Positions 17,216 through 64,000 of a DNA stretch of 64,000 bases are shown piece after piece. The position numbers and the translations under genes are program-made. This DNA comes from an uncultured bacterium (lineage in GTDB: Bacteria; Actinomycetota; Acidimicrobiia; Spongiisociales; ZC4RG35): assembly GCA_963825585.1 (NCBI GenBank), contig CAWGTX010000001.1, positions 669,613 through 733,612 on the forward strand, in the 5' to 3' direction. Numbering within the stretch: the stretch's first letter is position 1; the number at the start of each line of letters is the position of its first letter. A model generated the notes under the pieces. The model did no database searches. It was given only the letters and a program-made list of their open reading frames with translations, and was not told the origin of the DNA.

Positions 17216-17525
17216 AGGCTAACCACAAGTCGATACGCACCGCAACCGATCGTTGGTCACTTTCTTGTGGGCCGATGGCCATCGAGATCGGGTGCGGACA
17301 ACGGGTGATCGGCGGGATCCGACCCGACCAACGATTCGGCCGACCTTCACCGACGGACTCTGGCGGTTGTCCTCGCCATGGTGACCCTCGCCGATACTTG
17401 GTCCCGTGTTCGGCTGGCCGGCCTCGAAGTGGTTTCCACTGCCGGCATTGGGGCGCGGTCGGTGCTCCTCGCCCTGTTCGGGTTGGTGTTCGGGGTCGCC
17501 CTGCTCGGGCGCGATTCCAACCGCG

Positions 17526-20505: not shown

Positions 20506-20507
20506 GG

Positions 20508-21725: not shown

Positions 21726-21851
21726 GTGGACCTCCCCATCTACCGGTTGTCTGGTCCGCCCCCGAACCGTCCGCACCCATTCCTCACCCTGCCCGGCAGA
21801 CAGCGTAGTTGCTACCCGGTCGAGGCCAAGGGGGAAGGTTCCGACCGCGGG

Positions 21852-50399: not shown

Positions 50400-50986
50400 T
50401 GGCTGCCTTCGACCCGGCTGATGGGCTGTTCGTGGCCCAGTTCGATCGGCCCTCCGATCTGGAGCCGGTGAATCTACGGGCACTTTCACCCATGCAGCGG
50501 GCGCTCATGGTCATCGACGGGACCGTCACCAAATTCCTCGAGGCGTACTGCATGGAGCCGATCGAGGTCACAACGCTCGGCCAGGCCGAGCAGACGCTCG
50601 AAGTCGGCCAGGAGTGGCTCGATGTGAAGGCGGGGCGCGAGGTGCTCGCTCGTCACGTGACGCTCACCGGCGGATACAGCGGTGACCTGTACGCCTATGC
50701 CATCTCGCTCACCAACCCCGCCGCCATCCCCCGCGACATTCGTGCCGCCATGGAGATCCAGGGGGGCAGCGTCGGACGCATCCTCCTGTCGTCGCGCGTG
50801 GAGCAGCGTCGAGAAGTGCTGTGGTACGGCAAGGAATCGGCCGACGGCCTTCCCGACGCGCTCCGTGACCAGTACGACGGCGACCTGCTGAGCCGGGCCT
50901 ACCGCATCATGATGGGTGGGCGGCCGGTGATCATGATCATCGAGAAGTTCCCGTTCCGGGCCGACACCGCCCCGAACCACGACTGA
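50399..50986 (+). CDS. Chorismate-lyase-like (UbiC/UTRA fold) protein
   Basis: 195-aa ORF. DGTVTKFLEAY resembles the UbiC DSMTKRFEQ motif, and RREVLWYG resembles its WLREILL region. TGATG overlap with the FAAL gene. Confidence 0.4.
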   Translation: MAAFDPADGLFVAQFDRPSDLEPVNLRALSPMQRALMVIDGTVTKFLEAYCMEPIEVTTLGQAEQTLEVGQEWLDVKAGREVLARHVTLTGGYSGDLYAYAISLTNPAAIPRDIRAAMEIQGGSVGRILLSSRVEQRREVLWYGKESADGLPDALRDQYDGDLLSRAYRIMMGGRPVIMIIEKFPFRADTAPNHD

Positions 50987-51000
50987 GAAGGAAGGCACAC

Positions 51001-52290
51001 GTGGACGCTCGCCAGATCGGCTCGCTCATGGAGACGTTGGGCCGGGACGCCCTCGGTCAACTGCAACTCCGCAAGTTCCAGCTGGTGCTCGATCAGATGC
51101 TCGGCACCAACGCCTTCTACGCCGCCAAGTTCGGCGCAGTCGGAGTCCACAACTCGCGCGACATCACCGGTTGGGAGGACTTCCGGCGGCTCCCCTTCAC
51201 CACGAAGAAGGAGCTGTCGGCTGACCAGGCGGACAACCCGCCGTACGGCTCGAACCTGAGCTTCCCCCGCGACGCCTACGTGAAGATCCACCAGACGTCC
51301 GGGACCACCGGTGAGCCGTTGCGATGCCTCGACACGGCCGAGTCGTGGGACTGGTGGGCCGAGTGCTGGGCGTCGGTGTTCCGCGCTGCCGGCGTGACGG
51401 CTTCGGATCGCGTGTTCTACGGGTTCTCGTTCGGGCCGTTCATCGGTTTCTGGAGCTCCTACGAGGGTGCACGGAAGGTGGGTGCGCTCGCCTTTCCCGG
51501 TGGGGGCATGTCGTCGTTTCAGCGGCTCAAGGCGATCCTGACCAACGAGATCACCGTGCTGGTGTGCACCCCCACCTACGCCCTGCACCTGGCCGAGGTG
51601 GCCGAACAGGAAGGCATCGACCTGTCGAAGTCATCGGTCACCACCACCATTCATGCCGGCGAGCCGGGGGCGGGCCTTCCCGCCACCCGTGCCCGCATCC
51701 AGAAGGCGTGGGGGGCGCGGACCTTCGATCACGCCGGTGCCACCGAGGTGGGGGCGTGGGGCTTCGAATGCATCGAACAGTCAGGCCTGCACGTCAACGA
51801 GGGTGAATTCATCGTCGAGATCATCGATCCGGCGACCGGAGACCCCGCCGAGGAAGGTGAGGTCGTGATCACGAACCTCGGCCGTCCCGGCTACCCCGTA
51901 TTCCGGTACCGCACCGGAGACCGCGCCAAGATCGACACCAGCCCATGCTCATGCGGTCGCACATACGCCCGCCTCGAAGGCGGCGTGATCGGTCGGGTCG
52001 ACGACGTGCTCATCGTCCGTGGCATCAACGTGTTCCCGTCGGCCATCGAGAACATCCTCCGTTCGATCCCGGAGATCGGCGAGTTCGCCGTCGACGTGTA
52101 CCGAACCCATGAGCTCGACGACATGGTGATCCGGGTCGAGGTCACCTCCGGCGACACCACCGAAGTGGTAGCCGCCGCCGACAACGCCATCCGCAACGCC
52201 CTCAGCCTGCGGGCCAGAGTCGAATCGGTCGAGTTCGGGACGTTGCCCCGCTTCGATCTCAAGGCCCGGCGGTTCACCGACCATCGGTGA
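51001..52290 (+). CDS. PaaK/CapK-family adenylate-forming enzyme (phenylacetate-CoA ligase / F390 synthetase-like)
   Basis: QTSGTTGEPL and YRTGD motifs with the PaaK-family C-terminal domain. Confidence 0.75.
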   Translation: MDARQIGSLMETLGRDALGQLQLRKFQLVLDQMLGTNAFYAAKFGAVGVHNSRDITGWEDFRRLPFTTKKELSADQADNPPYGSNLSFPRDAYVKIHQTSGTTGEPLRCLDTAESWDWWAECWASVFRAAGVTASDRVFYGFSFGPFIGFWSSYEGARKVGALAFPGGGMSSFQRLKAILTNEITVLVCTPTYALHLAEVAEQEGIDLSKSSVTTTIHAGEPGAGLPATRARIQKAWGARTFDHAGATEVGAWGFECIEQSGLHVNEGEFIVEIIDPATGDPAEEGEVVITNLGRPGYPVFRYRTGDRAKIDTSPCSCGRTYARLEGGVIGRVDDVLIVRGINVFPSAIENILRSIPEIGEFAVDVYRTHELDDMVIRVEVTSGDTTEVVAAADNAIRNALSLRARVESVEFGTLPRFDLKARRFTDHR

Positions 52291-52412: not shown

Positions 52413-53378
52413 TCACGATCGCTGATACACCCTTACATAGTCGACGTACATGTGCTGGGGGAACTCGGTGTCGAGAGGGATCGGCCCTCCCAGGGTGCCG
52501 CCGAGGGCCAGGTTGAGAATGATGAAGAACGGTTGATCGAAGACCCATTCGCGGCCGCCCAACGACTCCGGGCCGAGGTCGTAGTACTCCTCGCCGTCGT
52601 AGAACCAGCGAATGCCTTCCTCGTCCCAGTCGATGGCGAAGGTGTGGAAGTCGTCACCGACGATGTAGTCCCGGCGGTTCCACCGGGTGAGCCCTCCGGC
52701 TCCGGCGTAGCCAGGTCCGTGCAGCGTGCCGAGCACCAGGTCCGGCTCCCGCCCCATGTACTCCATGATGTCGATCTCGCCGATGTCAGGCCAGTTGCTC
52801 TGAATCGGGTCGGCGGGGTCGCGCTCGAAGTCTGCCCCGAGCATCCAGAACGCCGGCCACGTGCCCACGCCGGTCGGCGGCTTGATGCGTGCCTCGATCC
52901 GCCCGTACTGGAACTCCCGCAGGTCCTGGGTGATGAGGCGGGCGGAGGTGTAATACGACTCCTCGAACCGTTCGAAACGCCCTTCGATCACCAGCAGACC
53001 GTTCTGGACCCGGGCGTTCTCCGGGCGGTCGGTGTAGTACTGAGCCTCGCCGTTGCCCCATCCCCAGCCGCCGATGTCGTAAGTCCAATTGGACGGATCG
53101 ATGGCGTCGCCATCGAACTCGTCGCTCCACACCAGCTCCATGCCCTCCGGTGGCTCGATCGGAATGGGCTCCGGTGCCGGGATCGTGGTGGTCGTCGTCT
53201 CCGGCACCGTCGTGGATGTCGTGGTCGGCTCGGGTGCCATCGTGGTGGTTGTCTCGACCTGGGGCGTCCCCATGGTCGTGGTGCCGGTACCTGCGGTCGA
53301 CTGGCAGGCGCCCATCGCCAGTAGAACGAACGCCATGACCAGGTACGCCGGTCGTCGAACCGTCGTCACTCGACCCAC
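52413..53378 (-). CDS. GH16 family beta-1,3(4)-glucanase lipoprotein with Thr/Pro-rich linker
   Basis: Lipobox LLAMGAC. GH16 catalytic motif EIDIME and the jelly-roll fold. Last gene of the ABC import operon. Confidence 0.8.
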   Translation of the reverse strand: MGRVTTVRRPAYLVMAFVLLAMGACQSTAGTGTTTMGTPQVETTTTMAPEPTTTSTTVPETTTTTIPAPEPIPIEPPEGMELVWSDEFDGDAIDPSNWTYDIGGWGWGNGEAQYYTDRPENARVQNGLLVIEGRFERFEESYYTSARLITQDLREFQYGRIEARIKPPTGVGTWPAFWMLGADFERDPADPIQSNWPDIGEIDIMEYMGREPDLVLGTLHGPGYAGAGGLTRWNRRDYIVGDDFHTFAIDWDEEGIRWFYDGEEYYDLGPESLGGREWVFDQPFFIILNLALGGTLGGPIPLDTEFPQHMYVDYVRVYQRS

Positions 53379-53397
53379 CTCTCGTGATTGCGGGGAC

Positions 53398-54297
53398 TCA
53401 GCCCTTGACGGCTCCTGCGGTGAGGCCGCCGATGATGTAGCGCTGCAGGAACATGAACAGAATGAGCATCGGGAGCATCAACATGAGCACCGCCGAGGCG
53501 ATACCCGGCCAGTTGCTCCCGTACACGCCCTCGAACACGATCAATCCCCTCGTGATCGGGAAGTAGTCCTGGTTCGTGAGGTAGATCGTTGGGAGAATCA
53601 GCTCGTTCCAGATACCGATCGCATGGAGCACGGTGACCGTCGCCACCGCCGGCCTGATCAACGGGAAGATCACCGTGAGCACATACCGGATGTAGCCCGA
53701 GCCATCGACAGCCGCCGATTCGTCGAGCTCGCGGGGAATCGACTTCATGTAGTTGACCAGGATGATCATGCCGATCGGGTTGATGAGGAACAACAGGATG
53801 TAGCCGGGACGAGTGTTGTACAGGCCCAGATTCAGGATCAACTGGAACTGTGGAATCAGTGCCGGGGGAAGGAACAGGGCCACGACGTACATGGTCAGGA
53901 TCGCACCGCTGCCCTTGAAGTACCCCCGGGCGATCGGAAACGCCACGAAGAGCGACGTCGCAATGAAGACGGCGGTGGCGATGGCGGTGTACAGGGCCGA
54001 GTTGAGCATGTACTGCGGGAAGTTGGCGAGCTCCCAGGCCTCGCCGAAGTTTGCCAGGCTCGGATCGGTCACGATGGCGGCCGGGTCCTTCAGGTACTGC
54101 GGCAGGGTCTTCAGCGCCGTGTTGACCAGCATGAAGAGCGGCCACAGGTAGAACACGGCAACCAGACCGAGCATGACATACGAGAAGATCTTCAGGAGCC
54201 GTGATCGCGCCGTGACGCTGGCCGGTTCCTTCTCGGTGAGATCCATCACCTGGTCGAGGGTCTTGGTGACCCCGTGTTGTTCGAGGGCGTCACTCAT
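53398..54297 (-). CDS. Carbohydrate ABC transporter permease (MalG-like)
   Basis: EAA loop AAVDGSGYIRYVLTVIFP with six TM segments. ATGA overlap with the upstream permease. Confidence 0.85.
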   Translation of the reverse strand: MSDALEQHGVTKTLDQVMDLTEKEPASVTARSRLLKIFSYVMLGLVAVFYLWPLFMLVNTALKTLPQYLKDPAAIVTDPSLANFGEAWELANFPQYMLNSALYTAIATAVFIATSLFVAFPIARGYFKGSGAILTMYVVALFLPPALIPQFQLILNLGLYNTRPGYILLFLINPIGMIILVNYMKSIPRELDESAAVDGSGYIRYVLTVIFPLIRPAVATVTVLHAIGIWNELILPTIYLTNQDYFPITRGLIVFEGVYGSNWPGIASAVLMLMLPMLILFMFLQRYIIGGLTAGAVKG

Positions 54298-55232
54298 CCC
54301 ATGTACCTCGCTTCTCTCCAGCTGACGTACTTGTTGGCCAAGAATCCGATGATCAGGACCAGGAAGAACAGCACGATTGACGCTGCGGCGGCGAAGCCCT
54401 GGCGGAACGCCGGGGAGTCACCTTGTCCGAAACCCTCCGCAAAGACCAGGTAGCCGAGCACCTGGGTTCCGGGCTTGTAGCCGATCAGCACCAGGAACAG
54501 CTGCCAGGCCTGCAGCGACCCGATGATGTTCAAGAGGAAGTTCGTGTTGATCGCCGGCGTGAGCTGTGGCCAAGTGATGCTGCGGAACAGCGACCATCCG
54601 CTCGCGCCGTCGATTCGAGCCGCCTCGTAGAGGTCGGTGTTGATGGTCTGCATGCCGGCCAGGAAGATGACCATGGTGACGCCGACATTGGCCCAGATCT
54701 GGACCACGATCACCCAGCCAAAGGCTTCACCGGGCTGCCCGCCCAGGAACTCAGAGGAAAGCCCGAACCAATCGAACATCATTGCCATGGGCCCTCCCCG
54801 CGGCTGGAGAAAGAGCTTCCACATGAGGCCCTGGATCACCACGCCGAGGATCACCGGCAGGAAGAAGAGGGTACGGAAGAACGTCCGACCCTTCAGCTTC
54901 TGGTTCACCAGGAGCGCCAGGATCAGACCAATGGTGAACTGAACGAAGGTGACGATCACGGAGAACTGGAGTGTTCTCAACGTGGCGTCGAGGTTGTCTC
55001 TGGAGGCAAGGCCCCGGAACAGGAACTCGTCGTAGTTGTCGAGTCCGATCCAGTTGACCGGCGCCCCCCTGAGTCCGCTTGCGTCGGTGAAGGAGTACCC
55101 CACCGTCGCCAGCGAGGGGCCGAGGGCGATCAGTACGTACAGGAGAACGCCGGGGATCAGGAGCATGAGGGGCGTGAAGCGCCGCCCCCTGCCGGCACTG
55201 CCGAACAGATAGTTCTTGTTCATGATCGCCAT
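54294..55232 (-). CDS. Carbohydrate ABC transporter permease (MalF-like)
   Basis: EAA loop [19 protein letters not shown] with TM segments. Confidence 0.85.
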   Translation of the reverse strand: MAIMNKNYLFGSAGRGRRFTPLMLLIPGVLLYVLIALGPSLATVGYSFTDASGLRGAPVNWIGLDNYDEFLFRGLASRDNLDATLRTLQFSVIVTFVQFTIGLILALLVNQKLKGRTFFRTLFFLPVILGVVIQGLMWKLFLQPRGGPMAMMFDWFGLSSEFLGGQPGEAFGWVIVVQIWANVGVTMVIFLAGMQTINTDLYEAARIDGASGWSLFRSITWPQLTPAINTNFLLNIIGSLQAWQLFLVLIGYKPGTQVLGYLVFAEGFGQGDSPAFRQGFAAAASIVLFFLVLIIGFLANKYVSWREARYMG

Positions 55233-55331
55233 CGAATCATGCCTCCCCGGTCTGTTGCCTCTTCCGGAGGGTCCTCGCCGCTGTGGCGAGGACCCTCCGT
55301 CGGAGGTGTGCTATTCGGTGTCTACTCGGTG

Positions 55332-56732
55332 CTACCCGGCGCTGAGGCCGGCCTCGAGGTCTGCTTGCGCCTGATCGGCGAGGGCTTTCGCATCGTCCCA
55401 CTCGTTGTACGGTGTGAACCACGACGCTCCCTGCCAGGCATTCGCCCACTGCCCGGCACCGGTCGGTGCGACCCAGATCTGCTCGAAGGCGGTGCGATAG
55501 TTGGCGAGAAGCGGCGCAACCGCGTCACCAACCGTGCTGTCGAGCGTCGCCGTGGGCTGCGTGGGAATGAAGCCCGTTGCGTCCACGAATGCCTGGTAGT
55601 TGTCGGGGTCCGAGATGGCTGCGAGATACGCCTTTGCCACATCCGGGTTCGGCGTGTCCTCGGCGATCATGAAGCTGAGGTCGTACTTGCCGAACAAGTA
55701 TTGGTTGTCGGCCGGATCATCGGATCCCGGGACGGGAACGTAGGTCCAGGCGAAGTCGGGCTCGAAGCCTTCGAGGTTGGCGCCCTGCCACGTGCCGGTG
55801 GGCAAGAAAGCCACATCGCCGGCCGCGTACCGGGCCGTGGCCTCGTCGTGGCTGAGACCTGTCACACCCGGTTCGAGCATGTCCTGAGCATACACCTGGA
55901 GCTTCTCCATGAGCTCGAGGCCCTCACCCTCGTTCCACTTGATCTCGCCGGTCCACAGGCCTTCGGACAGCGCGGCCTGGTCGGGGAACTGTGCCCCGAG
56001 AATGCCGTAGGAACCCACGAAGATCGGCCACACGTCGCCGCCGCCCTGCGTCATGCAGGCGTAGTCGGCAGCGATGATGGTCTCACATGCGGCGACCAGT
56101 TCGCTCCACGTCGTCGGGATCTCCACTCCGACCTCGGCCAACAGATCGGTGTTCGTGAACATACCGCTGAAGGCGCTGCGACCCATGTTGATGGCGTACA
56201 CGCTCCCATTGAACGAACCGGCATCCTGGATGGTCGGCTCGTCGAAGTTCTGGACGAATGGCTCATCGGTGATGTCCATGATCAGCCCGGCCTCGATCAG
56301 CTGCTGCCACGTTGGGGGGGAGCTGATGCCCGACATGTACGGCTGGATGCCGTTGGTGAACCCAGCACATGGCGCCACGCAGTAGTCGATCACATCGACG
56401 TCTGACGCCGAGAGCCGGGTCTGGATCGAGGTGGGCATGTCCTCGGGAGTCACGACCGACATGTCGACGGTGACCCCGGGGTTCGCGGCCTCGAAGTCGG
56501 CGTTGAACGAATCCATGTACTCGGTGAACGCCGGGTTCTGGTGGATCAGCACCCGCAGGGTGACATCCTCGCCGGGGCTCGCGGCACCTGTGGTGTCGGT
56601 GCCGGCGGAGGTCGTCGCCGTTTCCCCACCGGTGGCCGCGGTCGTGTCTGCGCTGTCGTCGCCACCACAGGCCGCGATGACCAGCGCTAGAACGACGAGA
56701 AGCGCTGTCGCCAGGCTTCGTCTTTTCCTCAT
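55332..56732 (-). CDS. Carbohydrate ABC transporter substrate-binding lipoprotein
   Basis: Lipoprotein signal LVVLALVIAAC+G followed by a low-complexity linker and the SBP family 1 fold. Confidence 0.85.
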   Translation of the reverse strand: MRKRRSLATALLVVLALVIAACGGDDSADTTAATGGETATTSAGTDTTGAASPGEDVTLRVLIHQNPAFTEYMDSFNADFEAANPGVTVDMSVVTPEDMPTSIQTRLSASDVDVIDYCVAPCAGFTNGIQPYMSGISSPPTWQQLIEAGLIMDITDEPFVQNFDEPTIQDAGSFNGSVYAINMGRSAFSGMFTNTDLLAEVGVEIPTTWSELVAACETIIAADYACMTQGGGDVWPIFVGSYGILGAQFPDQAALSEGLWTGEIKWNEGEGLELMEKLQVYAQDMLEPGVTGLSHDEATARYAAGDVAFLPTGTWQGANLEGFEPDFAWTYVPVPGSDDPADNQYLFGKYDLSFMIAEDTPNPDVAKAYLAAISDPDNYQAFVDATGFIPTQPTATLDSTVGDAVAPLLANYRTAFEQIWVAPTGAGQWANAWQGASWFTPYNEWDDAKALADQAQADLEAGLSAG

Positions 56733-56782
56733 GATCAGTCCTCCTCGTACGAATCCGGGTTGCGCCCTCTTCTGCGACGCTA

Positions 56783-56796
56783 TGGGAGCGCTCCCA
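56783..56796. promoter_or_regulatory. CebR/CelR-type LacI-family operator, perfect 14-bp palindrome TGGGAGCGCTCCCA
   Basis: Exact match to the CebR box known from Streptomyces/Thermobifida cellulolytic regulons. About 50 nt upstream of the SBP operon start. Confidence 0.6.
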
Positions 56797-56883
56797 TTCG
56801 ATGGGATCGCTGGTTCGACTATACGCTAGGCAAGCTATGAACGTCAAGGGATTGACCCGGCCGTCACAACTCGATAACTTCCC

Positions 56884-56897
56884 TGGGAGCGCTCCTA
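56884..56897. promoter_or_regulatory. Second CebR-type box TGGGAGCGCTCCTA (1 mismatch), upstream of LacI gene
   Basis: 13 of 14 positions match, in the divergent promoter region. A GGCAGAACGA x2 direct repeat lies nearby at 56955-56975. Confidence 0.5.
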
Positions 56898-57007
56898 CCG
56901 AAAGGGCTCCTCGAAGAGTGTCCTCTCCTCGAAGAGCGTTCTCATGGCGAACTAGGCAGAACGAGGCAGAACGAGATGGGAAGAGACCCGAGGACGAGGA
57001 AAGTGCG

Positions 57008-58135
57008 ATGAACCTCACGCTCGAAGACATCGGTCGACTGGCTGGGGTGTCGCGTTCGACCGTGTCTCGGGTCATCAACCACCATCCCAGCGTGAAGCCG
57101 TCGGTTCGCGAGCGGGTCGAGGAGGTGATTCGACGGACCGGTTACACGCCCAATGTGGCGGCGCGATCGCTCGTTTCCGGCCGCAGCGGCGTCATCGGCC
57201 TCGTCATCCCCAGTCGGGTGCACGCCCTCTTCGAAGATCCATACTTCTCTCGACTCATCCAAGGGATCAGCACCGCGTGCAACCAGGCGGGAAACACGCT
57301 GTCGCTGTTCCTGTTCCAGAACGAAGAGGAGGAGGGCGCCCTCTACCCGCGGGTGGTCACCTCCGGGTTCCTCGACGGTCTCATCATCACAGCCACCCGG
57401 ATGGCCGATCCTCTCCTGGCGAGGATGGCCGGGGGTGAGCTCCCGGTGGTGATGATCGGCCGTCCCGATGTGGGGGGGCTCAGCTATGTCGATGCCGACA
57501 ACCGTGGCGGTGCCCGGATGGCTGCGACGCATCTGATCGAACTCGGGTACGAGAGGATCGCTCTCCTCGGCGCCCCGGTTTCGACGACCGCCGGCGTCGA
57601 CCGGCTGAACGGCTTCATCGAAGGATTGGCGCTGCACGGACGAGCGCTCCACCCGAGCCTGCGAGTCGACGGCGACTATTCGGAGGCGAGCGGTTACCGG
57701 GGGATGTTGGAACTGATTCCCCGGAAGCCGAATGCCGTGTTCGTCGCCTCCGACACCATGGCGGTCGGCGCGCTCAGGGCGTTGCGCGAAGCGGCGGTAC
57801 GTGTCCCCGACGACATGGCGGTGGTGAGCTTCGATGGCCTTCCCGCATCGGAGAAGGCCGTGCCGCCACTCACCACCATCCGCCAGCCGGTCGCCGACAC
57901 CGGCGCCCGGGCGGTCGGAATGCTGAACAACCTCGTGATCGGGGCGGCCAGGGCGCCGATGGTCGAGATCATGCCGGTCGAACTGGTGATTCGGGAGTCC
58001 TCCGGAGGGACGAGATCGCCCGCCCAGCGCGAGGCCGGTGATCCGAGCCGGATGGACGGCGCGGGCGGCGAGCCGCTCCGGGATCCAGGAGATGTCGAAG
58101 GGGACGAAACGGACGAGGGAGAGAGGGAGCAATGA
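57008..58135 (+). CDS. LacI-family transcriptional regulator (CebR-like)
   Basis: HTH LEDIGRLAGVSRSTVSRVIN followed by a periplasmic-binding-protein-fold sugar-binding domain. ATG at 57008; acidic C-terminal tail. Confidence 0.85.
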   Translation: MNLTLEDIGRLAGVSRSTVSRVINHHPSVKPSVRERVEEVIRRTGYTPNVAARSLVSGRSGVIGLVIPSRVHALFEDPYFSRLIQGISTACNQAGNTLSLFLFQNEEEEGALYPRVVTSGFLDGLIITATRMADPLLARMAGGELPVVMIGRPDVGGLSYVDADNRGGARMAATHLIELGYERIALLGAPVSTTAGVDRLNGFIEGLALHGRALHPSLRVDGDYSEASGYRGMLELIPRKPNAVFVASDTMAVGALRALREAAVRVPDDMAVVSFDGLPASEKAVPPLTTIRQPVADTGARAVGMLNNLVIGAARAPMVEIMPVELVIRESSGGTRSPAQREAGDPSRMDGAGGEPLRDPGDVEGDETDEGEREQ

Positions 58136-61100
58136 TGAGCGGATCGATCTTCACGAAGAAACGGCGGGGCACGGCCGCCGTGGCGGTGCTGCTCGTGACG
58201 TCGCTGCTGGTGGCGGGGCCGGCGGTGCCGCCGGCAGCTCAGGCGGCCACCACCACGGTCGTCTTCGACGACATGGAGCACGGCGACCCCTTTGCAAACG
58301 GGTGGTTCAGCTTCGGCGGGGACGTCGGAGGGGGCGGCATCGCGGCCAACTCGACCGACCTGCCCCCCTTCGACGGCGGTGCGTTCTCGCTCGAGACCGG
58401 GTGGGGGTCGGGCGGTGTTCCGGGCTTCTACGGGGGATTCGGCCGAACCAGCCCGACCGATCTGACCGGGCTCGACCACCTGAACCTCTGGATCAACCCC
58501 GATCCCGGTCAGGACTACACCCTGGAGATCAATCTGCAGGACGACGACGACGCCGACACAGCCCCCGACGACGAGTTCCAGTACAACTGCGTCGTGGCGG
58601 CGGCGGGACCGTGCGCGATGGCTGGCGGCGGATGGCAGCTCGTCTCGATCCCCTTGGCAGACTTCCTCGACGACAACTCCTTCCTCACGGGCGGCAACGG
58701 TGTTCTCGGACCCGACCTGCTCAACGTGGTGATCGCCGTGATCGGCAACTCCGGGAGCGACGCCACGTTCCGCACCGACTACTGGGCGTTCTCGACCGGC
58801 CCCCTCTCGGGTGGGTCGACCGTCATCGACGACTTCGAGTCGCCCCTGACCGAAGGCTTCTTGACATTCAGCGACGGCAGCGCGATCTCGATCGCCCTGA
58901 CCGACGCCCCACCTGCTCCCGTTCCCGGATCGATCGCCGGCAACACCGTGCTCGACATGTCGGGTGACGTCGCCTCGTTCGCCGGGTTCGTTCACGCCTT
59001 CGACAGCGCCGATCCGGCCACCTGGGTCAGCCAGGACTGGAGCGGGTCGGAGGGCTTCCGGTTCTGGGTCTACGGGCAGAGCAGCGGGAACACCCTCTTC
59101 GTCGACATCCTCGACAATCGCAACCCGGGGTCGGCGGTCGACGACGCCGAGCGGTTCTCGGTCAGCTTCGTCGACGACTTCTCCGGATGGCAGCAACTCG
59201 AGTTCCCGTTCTCGGACTTCGTGCGCAAGGACATCGGCAACGGTGCTCCCAACGATGGCCTCACCCTCACCCAGGTCCACGGGTACGCCTTCGGCCTGCT
59301 CAACACGGGTGGGGCCCGGACCTACTACTTCGACGACGTCGAGCGGTACGGGGTAGCGGAGATCCCGCCGTTGGCCGTGACCTTCTCCAACGCCAACTTC
59401 GACGTGACGGAGGGCGACAGCGGATCGTTCACCATCAAGCTGAACCGGCCGATGAACGCCGACGACCCTGCCGAGGCGACGGTGCAGTACACGTCCGAGC
59501 CCTCCTCGGCGACGGCCGACCGCGACTACCTGCCGGTCGCAGGCAGCGTCACCTTCCTCAACGGTGGTCCGTCCGAGGTCGCCGTGGCGTTCACAACCAT
59601 CGAGGACAGCAAATGGGAGGGCAATGAGCGGGCGATCCTCCGGCTCTCCAACCCCCAGGGGGCCGAAGCCGGGTTCCTCATGCAGGCGGCGGCGACCGTC
59701 GTCGACGACGATCCGTACGAGCCGTTCCTGCTCGATGACTTCGAGCGGTCCCCCGACCTGTGGGACTCGACCGACAACGTCGAACTCAGCCGGATCGAAC
59801 TCGCCGCCGGCGACACCCTCGCCCGCCCCGGGCAGGACGACTTCGAGGGCGTCCTCCAGGTCGAGGGGCCGCTCGCGGTCGACATCCTGATCGAGGGCAA
59901 CCCCTGCTCCGCCGGCAACGGTGTGGTACCGGTGGCGCTGCTGAGCACCGCCGACTTCGACGCCACCACCGTCGACCACGCGACGGTGACCGTCGGCGAC
60001 GCCACCGAGACGCACACCAGCGGACGCAACAAGACCCCGACCCGCCACGAGGAGGACGTCAACGGTGACGGACTCACCGACCTCCTCTTCCACGTCCGCG
60101 CCAACGAGATCGGCGTCGAGTGCGGCGAGCCGATCCCGTTCAACGGCTGGACCTACGACGGCCGGCCGGTCACGGCGGGCGGGTCCGACGCCGGTCTCAT
60201 GCGGGACTTCCCGATCGGCCAGGACTGGACCGACGGCGAATCGCTGACCTTCTGGTACCACGGCACCGGAACCGGCGACACCGTCACCGTCCATCTCGCC
60301 GACAACCGCGCTCCCGATCCGGGGCCTGCGGGCTGGACGCTCGCCTGGGCCGATGAGTTCGGCGACCCCGCCGGCACGCCCCCGAGCGCCGCCAATTGGG
60401 GATATGAGATCGGCGACGGGACGGTGAACGGGATCCCCGGTTGGGGCAACGACGAGTTCCAGTACTACACCGACGATCCCGCCAACGCCTCGACCGACGG
60501 ATCGGGCAACCTGGTCATCACGCTCGACGAGGCGGACGGATCGCTCCTGTGCTACTACGGCGAGTGCTCGTACACCTCGGCGCGGCTGGTCACCAAGCAC
60601 AAGGCCGAGTTCGCCTACGGTCGGATCGAAGCCCGCATCCAGGTTCCCGACGGTGAGGCGGGTCTGTGGCCGGCCTTCTGGAGTCTCGGGACCGACATCG
60701 ACGTCGTCGACTGGCCCCAGACCGGTGAGATCGACTTCATGGAGTACGTGAGCCGTCTGCCGAACGAGATATTCGGCACCATCCACGGCCCGGGCTACGC
60801 AGGAGGCCAGAGCTTCGGCAACGTCTACGACTTCGACGGGCCGGTCGCCGACCAGTTCCACACCTTCACGATCGAATGGCAACCGGATCGGATCGACTGG
60901 TTCGTCGACGGCATCCAATACCACTCGGCGACCCCGACCGACGTCGCCCCCAATCAGTGGGTCTTCAACGACGCCGTCTACCTACTGCTCAACATGGCGA
61001 TCGGAGGCAACTTCGGAGGGACCATCAGCGAGGACCTGACGCTCCCGCAATCGATGAAGGTCGATTACGTGCGGGTGTACCAGGGCCCCGACACCGCCGA

Positions 61101-61446
61101 GCGGTTCGAGGCGAGCTTCGCCGACGACACCGAGGGTTGGCGTCTGGTCGAGGTGCCGTTCGATGCCTTCACCCGGTCCGCCGACCAGCCCGAGGGTGCG
61201 CCCAACGACGGTCTCGGACTGGACGAGGTGTGGGGCTACGGGTTCACCCTGCCCGACTCGGGTCTGCCCGAGGGTGTCACCTGGTTCGACCAGGTGCGCG
61301 TGAAGGAACTGCCTCCCCCCACCGAGCTGGTGGTGACCAGCCTCGCCAACGATGGCGCCGGCTCGCTGCGCGAGGCGGTGGCCCGGGTCGCCACCGGCGG
61401 AACCGTCACCTTCGATCCGGCGCTGGCCGGGGGAGGATCGAACTGA
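58132..61446 (+). CDS. Secreted multidomain GH16 beta-glucanase (signal peptide, CBM-like beta-sandwich modules, Calx-beta domain, GH16 catalytic domain EIDFME, C-terminal CBM-like module)
   Basis: Signal KKRRGTAAVAVLLVTSLLVAGPAVPPAAQAA. GH16 motif GEIDFMEY. Calx-beta-like segment VTFSNANFDVTEGDSGSFTIKLNRP. ATGA overlap with the LacI gene. Confidence 0.8.
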   Translation: MMSGSIFTKKRRGTAAVAVLLVTSLLVAGPAVPPAAQAATTTVVFDDMEHGDPFANGWFSFGGDVGGGGIAANSTDLPPFDGGAFSLETGWGSGGVPGFYGGFGRTSPTDLTGLDHLNLWINPDPGQDYTLEINLQDDDDADTAPDDEFQYNCVVAAAGPCAMAGGGWQLVSIPLADFLDDNSFLTGGNGVLGPDLLNVVIAVIGNSGSDATFRTDYWAFSTGPLSGGSTVIDDFESPLTEGFLTFSDGSAISIALTDAPPAPVPGSIAGNTVLDMSGDVASFAGFVHAFDSADPATWVSQDWSGSEGFRFWVYGQSSGNTLFVDILDNRNPGSAVDDAERFSVSFVDDFSGWQQLEFPFSDFVRKDIGNGAPNDGLTLTQVHGYAFGLLNTGGARTYYFDDVERYGVAEIPPLAVTFSNANFDVTEGDSGSFTIKLNRPMNADDPAEATVQYTSEPSSATADRDYLPVAGSVTFLNGGPSEVAVAFTTIEDSKWEGNERAILRLSNPQGAEAGFLMQAAATVVDDDPYEPFLLDDFERSPDLWDSTDNVELSRIELAAGDTLARPGQDDFEGVLQVEGPLAVDILIEGNPCSAGNGVVPVALLSTADFDATTVDHATVTVGDATETHTSGRNKTPTRHEEDVNGDGLTDLLFHVRANEIGVECGEPIPFNGWTYDGRPVTAGGSDAGLMRDFPIGQDWTDGESLTFWYHGTGTGDTVTVHLADNRAPDPGPAGWTLAWADEFGDPAGTPPSAANWGYEIGDGTVNGIPGWGNDEFQYYTDDPANASTDGSGNLVITLDEADGSLLCYYGECSYTSARLVTKHKAEFAYGRIEARIQVPDGEAGLWPAFWSLGTDIDVVDWPQTGEIDFMEYVSRLPNEIFGTIHGPGYAGGQSFGNVYDFDGPVADQFHTFTIEWQPDRIDWFVDGIQYHSATPTDVAPNQWVFNDAVYLLLNMAIGGNFGGTISEDLTLPQSMKVDYVRVYQGPDTAERFEASFADDTEGWRLVEVPFDAFTRSADQPEGAPNDGLGLDEVWGYGFTLPDSGLPEGVTWFDQVRVKELPPPTELVVTSLANDGAGSLREAVARVATGGTVTFDPALAGGGSN

Positions 61447-62399
61447 GCGGGCCGATCGTCGCCACCCGCGACATCACGGTCGACGCATCGAATGCTTCCG
61501 GCCTCACCCTCGACGGGCGGGGCATCGACCGGGTGCTCATTGTCGAAGCCGGGGCAACCGTGGCCGTGAGCCACCTCACGATGGCCGACGGCTACGGCTT
61601 CCAATTGGCGGGTTGCGTGCTCAACAACGGGGCGTTGACCCTCGACACGGTGACGGTCACCGACTGCGAGATGACGACCGACGCAGGCGACTTCTGGCAG
61701 GGTGGCGGCGGGATCTACAACGGTGAGAACTCGGCCCTGCACCTGATCGACAGCACCGTGTCGAACAACTCCAGCGGCTGGGCCGGAGGCGGCGTGTACT
61801 CCTTCTTCGGCTCGTCGACCACGCTCGAGCGGAGCACGATCAGCGGCAACACCGCCCAGGACGTCGGTGGTGGACTGCGGCTTCTCTCAGGCGCCACGGT
61901 CGTCAACTCGACGGTCAGCGGCAACACGTCGACCGGCTGGCACGGCGGGGCGATGTTCATCACCGACGGTGTGGTCGACATCACCAACGGCACCATCGCC
62001 GGCAACGGCGCCCCGGCCGGCACGGCCGGTGGCCTCTTCGTCGGCACGTTCGGCGCTTCGGCGGCGGCACTCAACCTGCAGAACACGATCGTCGCCGGCA
62101 ACGGCGACCTCGGATGTTTCCAGGGGTTCTTCGGCGCCGGCGCAGTGACGCTGACCTCGCTCGGGAACAACGTGTTCACCGACGGCACCTGCAACTCGGT
62201 GGCAAGCGATCAGGTGGTGGCGGATGTCGGGCTCGGGGTTCTCGCCGACAACGGCGGCCCGACTCGGACCCATTCACTGCTCGAAGCCAGCCCCGCCCTC
62301 GACGAAGCCGATGCCGCGGCCTGCCCCGTGACGGATCAACGGGGCGTGCCCCGTCCGCAACGGGCGGGGTGTGATGTCGGAGCGTTCGAGTTGGAGTGA
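61440..62399 (+). CDS. Right-handed parallel beta-helix repeat domain; probable out-of-frame C-terminal continuation of the GH16 protein
   Basis: Read in the frame of ORF 60876..62399, the sequence continues IELSGPIVATRDITVDASNASGLTLDGRG and then the beta-helix repeats. The upstream ORF ends ...TVTFDPALAGGGSN* at a GGGGG run. Confidence 0.5.
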   Translation, partial: ELSGPIVATRDITVDASNASGLTLDGRGIDRVLIVEAGATVAVSHLTMADGYGFQLAGCVLNNGALTLDTVTVTDCEMTTDAGDFWQGGGGIYNGENSALHLIDSTVSNNSSGWAGGGVYSFFGSSTTLERSTISGNTAQDVGGGLRLLSGATVVNSTVSGNTSTGWHGGAMFITDGVVDITNGTIAGNGAPAGTAGGLFVGTFGASAAALNLQNTIVAGNGDLGCFQGFFGAGAVTLTSLGNNVFTDGTCNSVASDQVVADVGLGVLADNGGPTRTHSLLEASPALDEADAAACPVTDQRGVPRPQRAGCDVGAFELE

Positions 62400-62415
62400 C
62401 AACCTCCCGATTCGT

Positions 62416-62439
62416 GGGTTCCGGCCTCGGCCGGAACCC
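62416..62439 (+). terminator. Candidate hairpin GGGTTCCGGCC-TCG-GCCGGAACCC between beta-helix ORF and GH3 gene
   Basis: Perfect 11-bp stem with a 3-nt loop; no U-tract. Confidence 0.4.
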
Positions 62440-62470
62440 ACGCACCCACCTACTCCAGGATCAACCACCA

Positions 62471-64000
62471 TGACCGCCAGCTCCGTGAACATCGATCTTC
62501 TCGTCGACGCGATGACCGTCGCCGAGAAGATCGGGCAGATGACACAGGTCTCCAACGACAGCATCACCCCGGCCGAGGTGGCCGACCATTTCATCGGGTC
62601 GGTGCTCAGCGGTGGGGAGGGCAACCCGACGCCGAACACTCCCGCGAACTGGGTCGACATGGTGGGCGGCTTCGTCGACGCCGCCGCCGGCAGCCGCCTG
62701 GGGGTTCCTCTCGTCTACGGGATCGACGCCGTGCATGGGCACAGCAACGTCCGGGGTGCCACGATCTTTCCCCACAACATCGGCCTTGGCTCGGTCGCCG
62801 ACCCGGACCTGGTCGAGCGGATCGGGCGGGCAACCGCCACCGAGATGCTGGCGACCGGCGTGCGGTGGGCCTTCGCTCCTACGGTGGCGGTACCTCAGGA
62901 CCTGCGCTGGGGCCGCACGTACGAGGGATATGGGAGAGACCCGGGGCTGGTGGCGACGCTGGGCGCCGCACTGGTCCGCGGGCTCCAGGGCTCGGAGATC
63001 GGCACGGCGAGAGTACTGGCATGTCCCAAGCACTTCGTGGCGGATGGAGCCACCTCATGGGATACCGCACCCCACTTCGACTGGACCGATTGGTGGGACG
63101 GTTGGGGGGATGGCTGGCGAATCGATCAGGGCGATGCACGGATCACCGAGGACGAGTTGCGTGCCGTTCACCTCCCGCCCTATCGGGCCGCCATCGATGC
63201 CGGCGCCATGACCGTGATGGCGTCGTACAGCTCCTGGAATGGTGTCAGGCTCCACGAGCATCAGCGGCTGCTCACCGATGTCCTCAAAGGCGAGTTGGGC
63301 TTCGGTGGATTCGTCGTGACCGACTGGATGGGAATCGACCAGATCGGGCCGAACTACGACGAGGCGGTGGTGAAGGCCATCAATGCCGGCATCGACATGG
63401 TCATGGTTCCGATCGACTACCAGCGCTTCCTGAACGCCATGAAGCGAGCAGTCGCCGACGGCGACATCGCCATGGGGCGGATCGACGATGCGGTGCGACG
63501 CATCCTCACGGCCAAGGCGGCCGCCGGACTGTTCGACCCAGTCCCCGATGCCCCACCGTTGAGCATGATCGGCTCAGCGGCACATCGAAGCCTCGCATCC
63601 GAGGCCGTGCGACGAAGCGCCACCCTGCTCAAGAACGACCGTGCCCTGCCCCTCGCCCCCACCACTCGAACGATCCGGGTGGCCGGGCCCGCCGCCGATG
63701 ACATCGGCCTCCAATGCGGAGGGTGGACCGTCGGTTGGCAGGGCGGAATCGGTTCGACGACCGAAGGCAGCACCCTGCTCGAGGGCCTGCGCAGCTCCGT
63801 CCCGTGCGAGGTGGCATACGACCCGTCCGGCGTCTTCCCCGATGGCGGTGGGGCCGACGTGGGTGTCCTCTGCATCGCCGAGCCGCCCTACGCCGAGGGC
63901 CCCGGCGACTGCGCCTCGCCCGAACCGAGCAGCGAGGATCGGGCGATCTTCTCCCGGATGCGAGCTTCGAGCCACATCCTCATCCTGGTGGTGTATTCGG
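62471..64000 (+). CDS. GH3 family beta-glucosidase (BglX-like), 3' end beyond window
   Basis: Manually translated open frame from the ATG at 62471 to the window end. It is absent from the ORF track because it has no stop. GH3 motifs KHFVADG and GFVVTDW (catalytic Asp). Confidence 0.85.

What the first reader, a model, noticed from the sequence alone, without database searches (positions are those of the whole stretch)
52413..64000. Beta-glucan (laminarin-type) utilisation locus under CebR-box control
Two operons diverge from a promoter region carrying a perfect CebR/CelR box (TGGGAGCGCTCCCA, 56783) and a one-mismatch copy (56884). One operon is SBP-permease-permease-GH16 lipoprotein. The other is LacI/CebR-like regulator, 1104-aa multimodular GH16 (+beta-helix) and GH3 beta-glucosidase.

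In Streptomyces and Thermobifida this box governs cellulose/cellobiose genes. Here the regulated enzymes are GH16 (typically beta-1,3 or mixed-linkage glucanases) and GH3, which suggests that the CebR regulon has been rewired to laminarin-like glucans. A related AGCGCT-core palindrome (TGTAAGCGCTTACA, 17202) precedes the other sugar-ABC operon, hinting at a second LacI-family regulon with a diverged half-site.
Basis: partly seen in the sequence, partly recalled or inferred. Interest (0 to 1): 0.55.

Follow-up and report, generated by a model that had tools for sequence, protein, structure and literature searches.

The report
Repressor-controlled beta-1,3-glucan (laminarin) utilisation locus
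An uncultured Acidimicrobiia bacterium carries a conserved gene cluster for digesting and importing beta-1,3-glucans such as laminarin, apparently switched by a neighbouring LacI-type repressor whose DNA sites look like the cellulose regulator CebR's box; it is a well-supported but fairly ordinary sugar-utilisation locus.

Summary
TGGGAGCGCTCCCA (56783-56796) and TGGGAGCGCTCCTA (56884-56897) lie in the 275-bp gap between two divergent operons:
- SBP, two permeases and a GH16 gene on the minus strand.
- LacI, a multimodular GH16 and GH3 on the plus strand.

Each box sits just downstream of a promoter -10 element. This layout recurs in nine other non-redundant Acidimicrobiia loci. In 236.6 kb, 26 of 27 matches to TGRGAGCGCTCYCA fall within 260 bp upstream of lacI.

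Both GH16 domains are laminarinase-like, with best solved relatives at E about 1e-67 and an intact ExDxxE motif. The GH3 resembles exo-1,3/1,4-beta-glucanases. Every relative with enough flank also encodes a GH149 beta-1,3-glucan phosphorylase, which would lie just past the window end.

"Rewired CebR regulon" is not supported as orthology:
- The repressor is only 38% identical to a Thermobifida CelR-type protein.
- About 70 other LacI clusters score closer to it than the CelR family does.
- Its binding protein has no detectable similarity to the cellobiose one, and the permeases are only 27-28% identical.

It is a separate LacI subfamily using a CebR-type operator.

The 17202 palindrome is real but has no supporting evidence as an operator.

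Verdict: new member of a known kind, modest interest.

The parts
52413..53378 (-). Secreted or lipid-anchored GH16 laminarinase. It has an N-terminal signal sequence and a Thr/Pro-rich linker, and is the last gene of the minus-strand operon.
   Evidence: Pfam GH16 at 6e-19. The best solved relatives are beta-1,3-glucanases and laminarinases 2HYK, 3ATG, 4DFS and 3AZX, at E 7e-68 to 1e-63. The catalytic motif GEIDIME is intact at residue 201.
53398..54297 (-). ABC permease 2 (CUT1-type)
   Evidence: Pfam BPD_transp_1. Conserved in every orthologous locus.
54294..55232 (-). ABC permease 1 (CUT1-type). It overlaps permease 2 by 4 bases.
   Evidence: Pfam BPD_transp_1. Conserved in orthologous loci.
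55332..56732 (-). Solute-binding lipoprotein (lipobox VIAAC). First gene of the minus-strand operon.
   Evidence: Pfam SBP_bac_8 at 4e-21. N-terminus MRKRRSLATALLVVLALVIAACGG. No BLASTP hit to the Thermobifida cellobiose SBP. Solved relatives are only distant.
56783..56796 (.). Operator O1: a perfect palindrome, TGGGAGCGCTCCCA. It lies 21 nt downstream of the -10 of the minus-strand promoter and 51 bp upstream of the SBP start codon.
   Evidence: One or two boxes occupy this position in all ten non-redundant orthologous loci.
56802..56815 (.). Decayed box TGGGATCGCTGGTT (9 of 14). It occupies the position where several relatives have a second intact box next to the -10.
   Evidence: Read from the sequence. 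L004, L028, L029, L032 and L034 have two tandem boxes here.
56818..56847 (-). Promoter of the SBP operon: -35 TTGACG (56847-56842), an 18-nt spacer, then -10 TATAGT (56823-56818).
   Evidence: This is the only promoter-like site the scan called in 56650-57100, at 10 of 12 matches, against 0.1 expected. The reverse complement of TATAGT/TATATT (ACTATA/AATATA) was found in 8 of the 10 loci, and GTCAA(G/A), the reverse complement of TTGAC, in all ten.
56852..56880 (+). Putative promoter of the lacI-GH16-GH3 operon: -35 TTGACC (56852-56857), a 17-nt spacer, then -10 TAACTT (56875-56880). It is back-to-back with the minus-strand -35.
   Evidence: Read from the sequence. The same layout, TTGAC(A/G/T/C) + 17-18 nt + TAnnnT followed within 1-7 nt by a box, can be read in L004, L028, L029 and L034 (and 40 sequences). 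The consensus scan did not call it, so it is an inference.
56884..56897 (.). Operator O2: TGGGAGCGCTCCTA, with one mismatch. It starts 3 nt after the plus-strand -10, so it overlaps the expected transcription start.
   Evidence: A box lies 27-65 bp upstream of lacI in all nine other orthologous loci; in the window it is 124 bp upstream because the leader is longer.
57008..58135 (+). LacI-family repressor, the first gene of the plus-strand operon and therefore autoregulated. Its stop codon overlaps the next gene's start (ATGA).
   Evidence: Pfam LacI HTH plus Peripla_BP_3/1. It is the only LacI gene in the window. The best solved relative is 5YSZ at 8.5e-57, 38% identity. No NCBIfam equivalog reached its cut-off.
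58132..62399 (+). Secreted multimodular beta-1,3-glucanase. Order of parts: signal peptide, CBM11-like modules, Calx-beta, GH16 catalytic domain, CBM11-like module, then a beta-helix / choice-of-anchor Q tail. It is interrupted by a 1-base frameshift at about 61422-61434.
   Evidence: Pfam CBM_11 (5.6e-33), Calx-beta and GH16. The GH16 domain's best solved relatives are 2HYK and 3ATG at E about 1e-67. The motif GEIDFME is at residue 866. The frameshift was mapped with tblastn against the L028 and L035 homologues. Choice_anch_Q scores 88 bits against a cut-off of 25.
62470..64000 (+). Cytoplasmic GH3 beta-glucan exohydrolase with no signal peptide. The gene is truncated by the window end.
   Evidence: Pfam Glyco_hydro_3 at 2.5e-73, plus the C-terminal domain. 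Best solved relatives are 5M6G, barley ExoI (1EX1) and exo-1,3/1,4-beta-glucanase 3RRX/3USZ, at E 3e-132 to 7e-103.

Best explanation
This is a beta-1,3-glucan (laminarin, curdlan or callose type) utilisation locus of an Acidimicrobiia bacterium. A local LacI-family repressor appears to control it.

Proposed pathway (inferred from the gene functions):
1. Two exported GH16 laminarinases, one cell-anchored and one large with CBM11-like modules, cut the polymer outside the cell.
2. A lipoprotein SBP and two CUT1 permeases import the oligosaccharides. The ATPase is encoded elsewhere.
3. A cytoplasmic GH3 exo-glucanase finishes degradation to glucose.
4. A GH149 beta-1,3-oligoglucan phosphorylase, expected just beyond the window end, produces glucose-1-phosphate.

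Proposed regulation (inferred from the layout):
- The repressor gene is the first gene of the plus-strand operon.
- The repressor binds the palindromes TGRGAGCGCTCYCA, which lie immediately downstream of the -10 elements of two back-to-back divergent promoters. This would shut off both operons and the repressor's own gene.
- An imported beta-gluco-oligosaccharide, most likely laminaribiose or laminaritriose, releases it.

What is shown: gene identities, the positions of the boxes, and their conservation. What is inferred: repressor binding, the identity of the inducer, and the transcription start sites.

The operator has the same sequence type as the CebR/CelR box of cellulolytic actinomycetes, but the regulator belongs to a different LacI subfamily.
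For: Gene functions.

GH149:
- The gene after GH3 in L028 matches the solved GH149 phosphorylase 6HQ6 at 1e-299.
- It passes the NCBIfam GH149 equivalog cut-off, 1373 bits against 1150.
- A GH149 homologue is present in all ten orthologous loci with enough flank (L001, L002, L004, L027, L028, L029, L031, L032, L034, L035; L035 duplicates L001). This includes L027, whose LacI is 96% identical to the window's.

Operators:
- Significance within the window.
- 26 of 27 matches at 12 or more of 14 positions, in 236.6 kb from ten non-redundant loci, lie within 260 bp upstream of lacI.
- The boxes flank conserved back-to-back promoter elements: a -35 in all ten loci and a recognisable minus-strand -10 in eight.

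Operon structure: lacI and GH16 overlap at ATGA, and the permease genes overlap by 4 bases.

Export signals: signal or lipoprotein N-termini on the SBP and both GH16 proteins, none on GH3.

Positive control: a Thermobifida CelR-type locus shows the same logic, with a box right after a promoter upstream of an SBP operon.

Precedents: the laminaribiose-responsive LacI repressor GlyR3 (PMC5483248), and GH149 clusters with an ABC transporter and LacI (PMC5827456).
Against: - No binding, induction or enzyme data exist for this system.
- The inducer is a guess. CebR-type proteins respond to cellobiose (PMC4358012).
- Pfam's CBM_11 family matched the large enzyme. From my own knowledge, not checked here, characterised CBM11 modules bind beta-1,4 and mixed-linkage glucans, and some GH16 laminarinases cut both beta-1,3 and mixed-linkage substrates; one relative in the hit lists is named a beta-1,3(4)-glucanase (7WWC). 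Mixed-linkage glucan therefore cannot be excluded as a substrate.
- The large GH16 gene is frameshifted in this assembly.
- GH149 itself is not inside the window.
- The plus-strand -10 (TAACTT) is weak and the scan did not call it.
- A regulator encoded elsewhere could be the protein that binds the boxes.
Confidence: 0.75

Rival explanations
1. The regulator is a true CebR/CelR orthologue that senses cellobiose. Its regulon has been rewired in Acidimicrobiia from cellulose genes to GH16/GH3 genes.
For: - The operator is identical to the CebR consensus (PMC4358012, PMC3538285).
- A CelR-type protein is the best solved relative by 14 orders of magnitude.
- The Arg in the recognition helix is shared: VSRSTVSRV against VGRGTVSRV.
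- Rewiring of CebR onto non-cellulose targets has a precedent in the thaxtomin genes (PMC4358012).
Against: - Identity to the CelR-type protein is only 38%, whereas CelR orthologues across Streptosporangiales are 60% or more identical to it.
- The best CelR-family representative ranks about 75th among 50%-identity clusters.
- In a 143-sequence neighbour-joining tree the window family and the CelR family are separate clades whose smallest common clade is the whole tree.
- The SBP gave no BLASTP hit to the cellobiose SBP, and the permeases are 27-28% identical.
- There is no GH1 or cellulase gene in the locus.
Confidence: 0.15
2. The main substrate is mixed-linkage beta-1,3-1,4-glucan (lichenan or cereal glucan), or beta-glucosides in general, rather than laminarin-type beta-1,3-glucan.
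For: - The big enzyme carries CBM11-like modules.
- The GH3 is closest to exo-1,3/1,4-beta-glucanases.
- A beta-1,3(4)-glucanase (7WWC) is among the good GH16 hits.
- The nearest LacI relative in another phylum (L003) sits with GH3 and GH1 only.
Against: - The top GH16 hits are beta-1,3-glucanases and laminarinases. Lichenase-type GH16 enzymes score only about 1e-6.
- The active-site motif is the ExDxxE form rather than ExDxE.
- A GH149 beta-1,3-glucan phosphorylase is the most constant partner of the regulator across loci.
Confidence: 0.15
3. The palindromes are bound by a regulator encoded elsewhere in the genome, for example a global CebR-like protein, and the adjacent LacI recognises some other site.
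For: Nothing here shows directly which protein binds the boxes. The VSR[SA]TVSRV-type recognition helix is shared by many LacI clusters, so cross-recognition is conceivable.
Against: - Boxes and this lacI gene co-occur in all ten non-redundant loci, and essentially nowhere else in about 237 kb.
- No other conserved palindrome stood out when I read the intergenic sequences; I did not scan them for other palindromes.
- Operators placed in the regulator's own divergent promoter are the standard arrangement for the LacI family.
Confidence: 0.07
4. The boxes are chance palindromes with no regulatory role.
For: The window holds nine perfect 14-bp palindromes with a central CG, so GC-rich DNA does produce such palindromes.
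Against: - None of 100 shuffles reached the observed count.
- Position and sequence are conserved across loci whose regulators are only 64-96% identical, while the surrounding intergenic DNA diverges.
Confidence: 0.02

Closest known systems
CebR (Streptomyces) / CelR (Thermobifida fusca) cellobiose-responsive LacI repressors and their 14-bp box TGGGAGCGCTCCCA
   Same: - The operator sequence is the same, perfect at 56783.
- Both are LacI-family repressors.
- The operator lies just downstream of the promoter of an SBP-permease-permease operon next to the regulator gene. A Thermobifida locus (L054) checked here shows the same logic.
- CelR-type 5YSZ is the nearest solved structure.
   Different: - Identity is only 38%.
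- It is not the reciprocal closest family.
- The SBP has no BLASTP hit to the cellobiose SBP, and the permeases are only 27-28% identical.
- The linked enzymes are GH16, GH3 and GH149 (beta-1,3-glucan) rather than GH1 and cellulases.
- The family consensus is TGRGAGCGCTCYCA.
- The effector is unknown.
GH149-containing beta-1,3-glucan utilisation gene clusters (Kuhaudomlarp et al. 2018, PMC5827456)
   Same: In the orthologous loci, a GH149 phosphorylase is clustered with an ABC transporter and a LacI regulator (their type I). GH16 and GH3 are also present, as in their type II clusters and the Bacteroidetes PULs.
   Different: - The described clusters are from Proteobacteria and Bacteroidetes, and their ABC cassette is a different type (COG0747 SBP with its own ATPases).
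- This one is actinobacterial, uses a CUT1-type transporter without an ATPase gene, adds two exported GH16 enzymes, and has defined operators.
- The GH149 gene itself lies beyond the window end.
GlyR3 of Clostridium thermocellum (celC-glyR3-licA), a laminaribiose-responsive LacI repressor (PMC5483248)
   Same: A LacI-family repressor sits inside an operon of beta-1,3-glucan-active enzymes and is autoregulated. Laminaribiose is the demonstrated inducer there, which gives a mechanistic precedent for the proposed effector.
   Different: The phylum, operator sequence and gene set are all different, and there is no transporter or phosphorylase. Similarity between the two regulators was not tested here.
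Thermotoga maritima beta-glucoside/laminarin operon bglREFGKL-bglB-lamA (PMC3750489)
   Same: One regulated unit combines a GH16 laminarinase, a GH3 beta-glucosidase and an oligosaccharide ABC transporter.
   Different: The regulator there (BglR) is ROK-family, not LacI. The transporter is a different type and responds to cellobiose and glucose.

Membership tests
CebR/CelR regulators | LacI-family architecture: N-terminal HTH plus a periplasmic-binding-protein-like sugar domain | tested here: met
   Pfam LacI, Peripla_BP_1 and Peripla_BP_3.
CebR/CelR regulators | Cognate operator is the 14-bp palindrome TGGGAGCGCTCCCA | tested here: inconclusive
   Boxes are present and conserved in the regulator's own divergent promoter. 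Physical binding cannot be tested with these tools.
CebR/CelR regulators | Orthology to characterised CelR/CebR: closest family, reciprocally | tested here: not met
   38% identity. CelR-family representatives rank about 75th to 120th. The two families form separate clades in a neighbour-joining tree. The tree is a simple distance tree without support values.
CebR/CelR regulators | Linked to the cebEFG/bglABC cellobiose transporter and a GH1 beta-glucosidase; controls cellulases | tested here: not met
   The locus has GH16, GH3 and (in relatives) GH149. The SBP gave no BLASTP hit to the Thermobifida cellobiose SBP, and the permeases are 27-28% identical. The rest of the genome is not available.
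CebR/CelR regulators | Released from DNA by cellobiose or cello-oligosaccharides | not testable with these tools
   Needs EMSA with ligands.
GH16 laminarinase group (CAZy subfamily GH16_3, assigned from my own knowledge of the reference enzymes) | Closest to characterised endo-beta-1,3-glucanases rather than to lichenases, agarases, carrageenases or xyloglucan-active enzymes | tested here: met
   Top solved relatives are 2HYK, 3ATG, 3AZX, 4DFS and 2VY0 at 1e-55 to 1e-68. Lichenases and carrageenases score about 1e-6. No dbCAN subfamily HMM was available.
GH16 laminarinase group (CAZy subfamily GH16_3, assigned from my own knowledge of the reference enzymes) | Intact catalytic ExDxxE motif | tested here: met
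   GEIDIME at residue 201 and GEIDFME at residue 866.
GH16 laminarinase group (CAZy subfamily GH16_3, assigned from my own knowledge of the reference enzymes) | Hydrolyses beta-1,3-glucan | not testable with these tools
   Needs an enzyme assay.
GH149-type beta-1,3-glucan utilisation cluster | GH149 beta-1,3-oligoglucan phosphorylase encoded in the cluster | tested here: inconclusive
   The window ends inside GH3. All ten orthologous loci with enough flank have GH149 (6HQ6 at 1e-299; NCBIfam equivalog above its cut-off). Attempts to read past the window end failed.
Local LacI repressor/operator switch | Palindromic operator with a central CG that overlaps or immediately follows the promoters of the regulated operons, conserved among orthologues | tested here: met
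GH3 ExoI-like beta-glucan exohydrolase | GH3 N- and C-terminal domains, closest to exo-1,3/1,4-beta-glucanases | tested here: met
   The gene is truncated by the window end.

The most novel reading that the evidence does not exclude
The TGRGAGCGCTCYCA 'CebR box' may not be a signature of the cellulose regulator. It may instead be an older operator type shared by several LacI subfamilies across Actinomycetota, and apparently Chloroflexota, each governing a different beta-gluco-oligosaccharide. On this reading the Acidimicrobiia subfamily would be a laminari-oligosaccharide sensor. Genome scans that equate this box with cellulose or cellobiose regulons would then mis-assign targets, and cross-talk between cellulose and laminarin regulons through a common operator would be possible.
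Probability: 0.4. Interest if true: 0.45.

Novelty: new member of a known kind. Interest (0 to 1): 0.3.

Why it matters
Laminarin-type beta-1,3-glucan is widely regarded as a major carbon source in aquatic and soil systems, and Acidimicrobiia are largely uncultured (both from my own knowledge, not checked here).

A conserved locus with defined enzymes, a transporter and operators gives three things:
- A concrete, testable model for how this class uses beta-1,3-glucan.
- A simple marker: lacI, the boxes, GH16 and GH149 together.
- A caution that the CebR box alone does not identify cellulose regulons outside the well-studied actinomycetes.

Mechanistically it is a standard local-repressor sugar locus.

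Tried and rejected
- **Source contig and sequence past 64000.** I looked up the exact LacI, SBP and permease proteins, and the 100%-identical SBP2 cluster P0391. None is on record, so GH149 could not be shown in the source genome itself.
- **Literature link between CebR/CelR and beta-1,3-glucanases.** 'CebR + laminaribiose' gave one paper that I did not open (BcpE2). 'Lam81A + CelR' gave nothing. From memory, T. fusca lam81A has a CelR site; this remains unverified.
- **'5YSZ' search.** It returned only ceramics papers. The identification of 5YSZ as T. fusca CelR rests on my memory, on its 92% identity to a Thermobifida halotolerans protein, and on that protein's classical locus.
- **SBP specificity.** Solved structures gave only distant maltose, xylo-oligosaccharide and chitin-oligosaccharide binders, which is uninformative.
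- **NCBIfam naming of the regulator.** No equivalog came near its cut-off.
- **Rfam scan of the whole window.** No hits.
- **Terminator scan after the GH16 gene.** None found.
- **Conservation of the 17202 palindrome.** It is absent, even at up to 3 mismatches, from the 13-kb locus around a 63%-identical SBP orthologue (L055).
- **Rejected: the boxes support DNA looping by a tetramer.** Box spacing clusters at about 77 and about 100 bp, which simply tracks the one-box or two-box layouts around fixed promoters. I saw no evidence of a tetramerisation helix.

Full report
**1. Observation**

The two boxes exist exactly where stated. TGGGAGCGCTCCCA lies at 56783-56796 and TGGGAGCGCTCCTA at 56884-56897. 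Allowing 2 mismatches, the window has 3 hits against 0.49 expected, and no shuffle out of 100 reached 3. The third hit (48958) lies inside an AMP-binding enzyme gene.

Pfam confirms the gene content:
- Minus strand: SBP (55332-56732), two permeases (54294-55232 and 53398-54297), GH16 (52413-53378).
- Plus strand: LacI regulator (57008-58135), a protein with CBM11, Calx-beta and GH16 (from 58132), and GH3 (from 62470, cut by the window end).

The LacI start is the ATG at 57008 (MNLTLEDI...), as in about 344-aa homologues. It is not the 56801 start of the raw ORF.

The lacI stop overlaps the GH16 start (ATGA), and the permease genes overlap by 4 bases. These are therefore two divergent operons separated by a 275-bp gap.

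One correction to the finding. The '1104-aa' ORF is truncated by a frameshift in a G run at about 61422-61434. The 1443- and 1448-aa homologues of L028 and L035 align in frame 3 up to about 61431-61434 and continue in frame 2 to 62396. The displaced tail carries a choice-of-anchor Q domain above the NCBIfam cut-off.

**2. What the enzymes are**

Both GH16 catalytic domains find characterised endo-beta-1,3-glucanases and laminarinases as their best solved relatives. These include 2HYK, 3ATG, 3AZX, 4DFS and 2VY0, at E 1e-55 to 1e-68. Lichenases and carrageenases score only about 1e-6.

Both keep the ExDxxE catalytic motif, as GEIDIME and GEIDFME. From my knowledge of CAZy, the reference enzymes belong to subfamily GH16_3. 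No subfamily HMM was available to test this directly.

The GH3 is closest to 5M6G, barley beta-glucan exohydrolase ExoI and the exo-1,3/1,4-beta-glucanase 3RRX/3USZ. It has no signal peptide, whereas the SBP has a lipobox (VIAAC) and both GH16 proteins have export signals.

No ABC ATPase is encoded in the window. From general knowledge, this is usual for actinobacterial CUT1 systems that share MsiK.

**3. Relatives**

The regulator's homologues are from Acidimicrobiia metagenome-assembled genomes. I collected ten non-redundant orthologous loci, counting the window: L001, L002, L004, L027, L028, L029, L031, L032 and L034 (L035 duplicates L001). Their regulators are 66-96% identical to the window's.

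All keep the divergent SBP-permease-permease and lacI arrangement. All except L034, whose contig ends inside the second permease gene, also show a GH16 lipoprotein gene in that operon.

Downstream of lacI the content varies, but a roughly 1150-aa protein is present in every locus with enough flank:
- It matches the solved GH149 beta-1,3-oligosaccharide phosphorylase 6HQ6 at 1e-299.
- It passes the NCBIfam GH149 equivalog cut-off, 1373 bits against 1150.

In L027 (LacI 96% identical), L028 and L029, the order is lacI, big GH16, GH3, GH149. The window therefore almost certainly stops about 250 bp before the end of GH3 and just short of a GH149 gene. I could not read past the end.

Some relatives insert short-chain dehydrogenase, MR_MLE-family, lactonase, PfkB-kinase and KDPG-aldolase genes, an Entner-Doudoroff-like set.

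**4. The switch**

The same architecture recurs across the ten loci:
- The two -35 elements are back-to-back, as GTCAAGTTGAC or variants. GTCAA(G/A) was found in all ten loci.
- On the SBP side, an intact -10 (TATAGT or TATATT, read as ACTATA/AATATA on the plus strand) was found in eight of the ten loci and is followed by one or two boxes.
- On the lacI side, a TAnnnT -10 lies 17-18 nt from the -35 and is followed within 1-7 nt by a box. I read this in the window, L004, L028, L029 and L034.

In the window:
- The SBP-side promoter is TTGACG, 18 nt, TATAGT (56847-56818). It is the only site the scan called in 56650-57100, against 0.1 expected.
- O1 follows that promoter 21 nt downstream. A decayed box (56802-56815) sits in between, where five relatives have an intact second box.
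- The lacI-side promoter is TTGACC, 17 nt, TAACTT (56852-56880). It is followed after 3 nt by O2.

Across 236.6 kb, 26 of 27 matches at 12 or more of 14 positions to TGRGAGCGCTCYCA lie within 260 bp upstream of lacI. The core GAGCGCTC is nearly invariant, and positions 3 and 12 alternate G/A and C/T.

This is a classical footprint of repressor operators that block initiation or early elongation at both promoters, including the repressor's own. Binding, transcription starts and the inducer are inferred, not shown.

**5. Is it CebR?**

The box is the published CebR/CelR consensus (PMC4358012, PMC3538285).

The best solved relative of the regulator is 5YSZ, at 8.5e-57 against 7.9e-43 for the next hit. 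I recall 5YSZ as T. fusca CelR with cellobiose. The depositors' name is only 'LacI family'. Its sequence is 92% identical to a Thermobifida halotolerans protein. That protein's locus is SBP-permease-permease-GH1-lacI, with a perfect box 75 bp upstream of the SBP gene. This is the classical CelR context and serves as a positive control.

Orthology, however, is not supported:
- Identity is 38%, while CelR orthologues across Streptosporangiales stay at 60% or more.
- In an exhaustive search of 1.84 billion cluster representatives, the window family collapses to one full-length representative (P0241) and two shorter fragment representatives (P0244, P0291). About 70 other 50%-identity clusters score higher to the window protein (up to 301 bits) than the best CelR-family representative does (P0315 at 213 bits; P0360 at 198 bits).
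- In a 143-sequence neighbour-joining tree the two families are separate clades, and their smallest common clade is the whole tree. CelR ranks 132nd of 142 by distance. This is a simple distance tree without support values.
- The window SBP has no BLASTP hit to the Thermobifida cellobiose SBP, and the permeases are 27-28% identical.

Recognition helices are VSRSTVSRV in the window family and VGRGTVSRV in the CelR family. The VSR[SA]TVSRV form is common among the closer clusters.

The nearest relative from another phylum is L003, an Anaerolineaceae genome (49% identity). It has a related box (TGAGATCGCTCCCA) next to a -10/-35 pair, and an operon of SBP, two permeases, GH3 and GH1.

The simplest reading is that a broad group of LacI subfamilies governing beta-gluco-oligosaccharide uptake uses this operator type. 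The Acidimicrobiia family is one of them and is dedicated to a beta-1,3-glucan locus.

**6. Known comparators**

- GH149 genes clustered with an ABC transporter and LacI, or with GH16 and GH3, have been described in Proteobacteria and Bacteroidetes (PMC5827456).
- A laminaribiose-responsive LacI repressor, GlyR3, is known in C. thermocellum (PMC5483248).
- T. maritima has a regulated laminarinase-GH3-ABC operon under a ROK regulator (PMC3750489).

The present locus is therefore a new, well-defined member of a known kind. Its one notable twist is a CebR-type operator outside the CebR family.

**7. The second palindrome**

TGTAAGCGCTTACA (17202-17215) is unique in the window. Among the nine perfect CG-centred 14-mers in the window, it is the only one besides the CebR-type box with the TG...CA and AGCGCT form.

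It lies 71 bp upstream of the annotated start of an SBP gene. Homologues of that SBP are labelled alpha-glucoside SBPs by JGI.

Three points count against it as a demonstrated operator:
- The window has no second LacI gene.
- The palindrome is absent from a 63%-identical orthologue's locus.
- Homologous SBPs are 440-485 aa with a lipoprotein signal peptide. The window ORF lacks one, and in-frame homology continues upstream of the annotated start, through the Gly/Asp-rich linker, until a stop codon next to the palindrome.

The palindrome therefore sits where the signal peptide should be encoded. The gene may be 5'-truncated or misassembled. The 'second regulon' remains a bare possibility.

**8. 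Verdict**

- The functional call (laminarin-type locus under box control) is well supported by comparative evidence.
- The evolutionary claim (rewired CebR regulon) is not supported.
- Novelty is modest.

Noticed in passing
window 61422-61434: There is a one-base frameshift in a G run (GGGGGAGG) inside the multimodular GH16 gene. Homologues are single ORFs of about 1443-1448 aa. It is either an assembly error or a recent pseudogenisation. The closest relative, L027, shows several split genes as well, which suggests indel-prone assemblies.
   Followed up: partly
window 17132-17221: The alpha-glucoside-type SBP gene (15902-17131, minus strand) lacks the lipoprotein signal peptide that all its homologues have. 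In-frame homology continues upstream of the annotated GTG through a Gly/Asp-rich linker and stops at a TAG (17219-17221) next to the TGTAAGCGCTTACA palindrome. The gene may be 5'-truncated or misassembled.
   Followed up: partly
window 56949-56975; L027 about 9950-9998: The lacI leader holds a 10-bp tandem repeat (GAACGAGGCA, 2.7 copies). The close relative L027 has a different tandem repeat (GAGATGACAC-like) at the same place. These two leaders are longer than in the other loci: O2 lies 124 and 65 bp upstream of lacI, against 27-54 bp elsewhere. The meaning is unknown.
   Followed up: no
L029 3368-6431; L031 1-6406; L032 1606-6411 and 14618-16230: Several orthologous loci insert short-chain dehydrogenase, MR_MLE-family dehydratase, SGL lactonase, PfkB kinase and KDPG aldolase genes into or beside the operons. 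This hints that the released glucose enters a semi-phosphorylative Entner-Doudoroff-type route. The window lacks these genes at this position.
   Followed up: no
L003 9803-19618: An Anaerolineaceae genome has a 49%-identical LacI with a related box (TGAGATCGCTCCCA) beside a TATAGT/TTGACA pair. It also has an operon of SBP, two permeases, an unknown 476-aa protein, GH3 and GH1, plus a second divergent LacI gene. The operator type seems to reach beyond Actinomycetota.
   Followed up: partly
window 58009-58135: The window's LacI has an acidic, low-complexity C-terminal extension of about 40 residues. It is absent from the roughly 344-aa homologues and runs into the overlapping start of the GH16 gene.
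   Followed up: no
window 48958-48971: TGGGAGCGCTGCCC is a two-mismatch copy of the box inside an AMP-binding enzyme gene (48717-50399). It is the only box-like site outside the lacI promoter regions in about 237 kb of related loci, and is probably chance.
   Followed up: partly
window 17768-21776 and 48717-52290: The sugar loci are flanked by acyl-CoA ligase and acyl-CoA dehydrogenase genes, and by a chorismate pyruvate-lyase-like gene (50399-50986). These are unrelated to the glucan locus, and they converge on the end of the GH16 operon.
   Followed up: no
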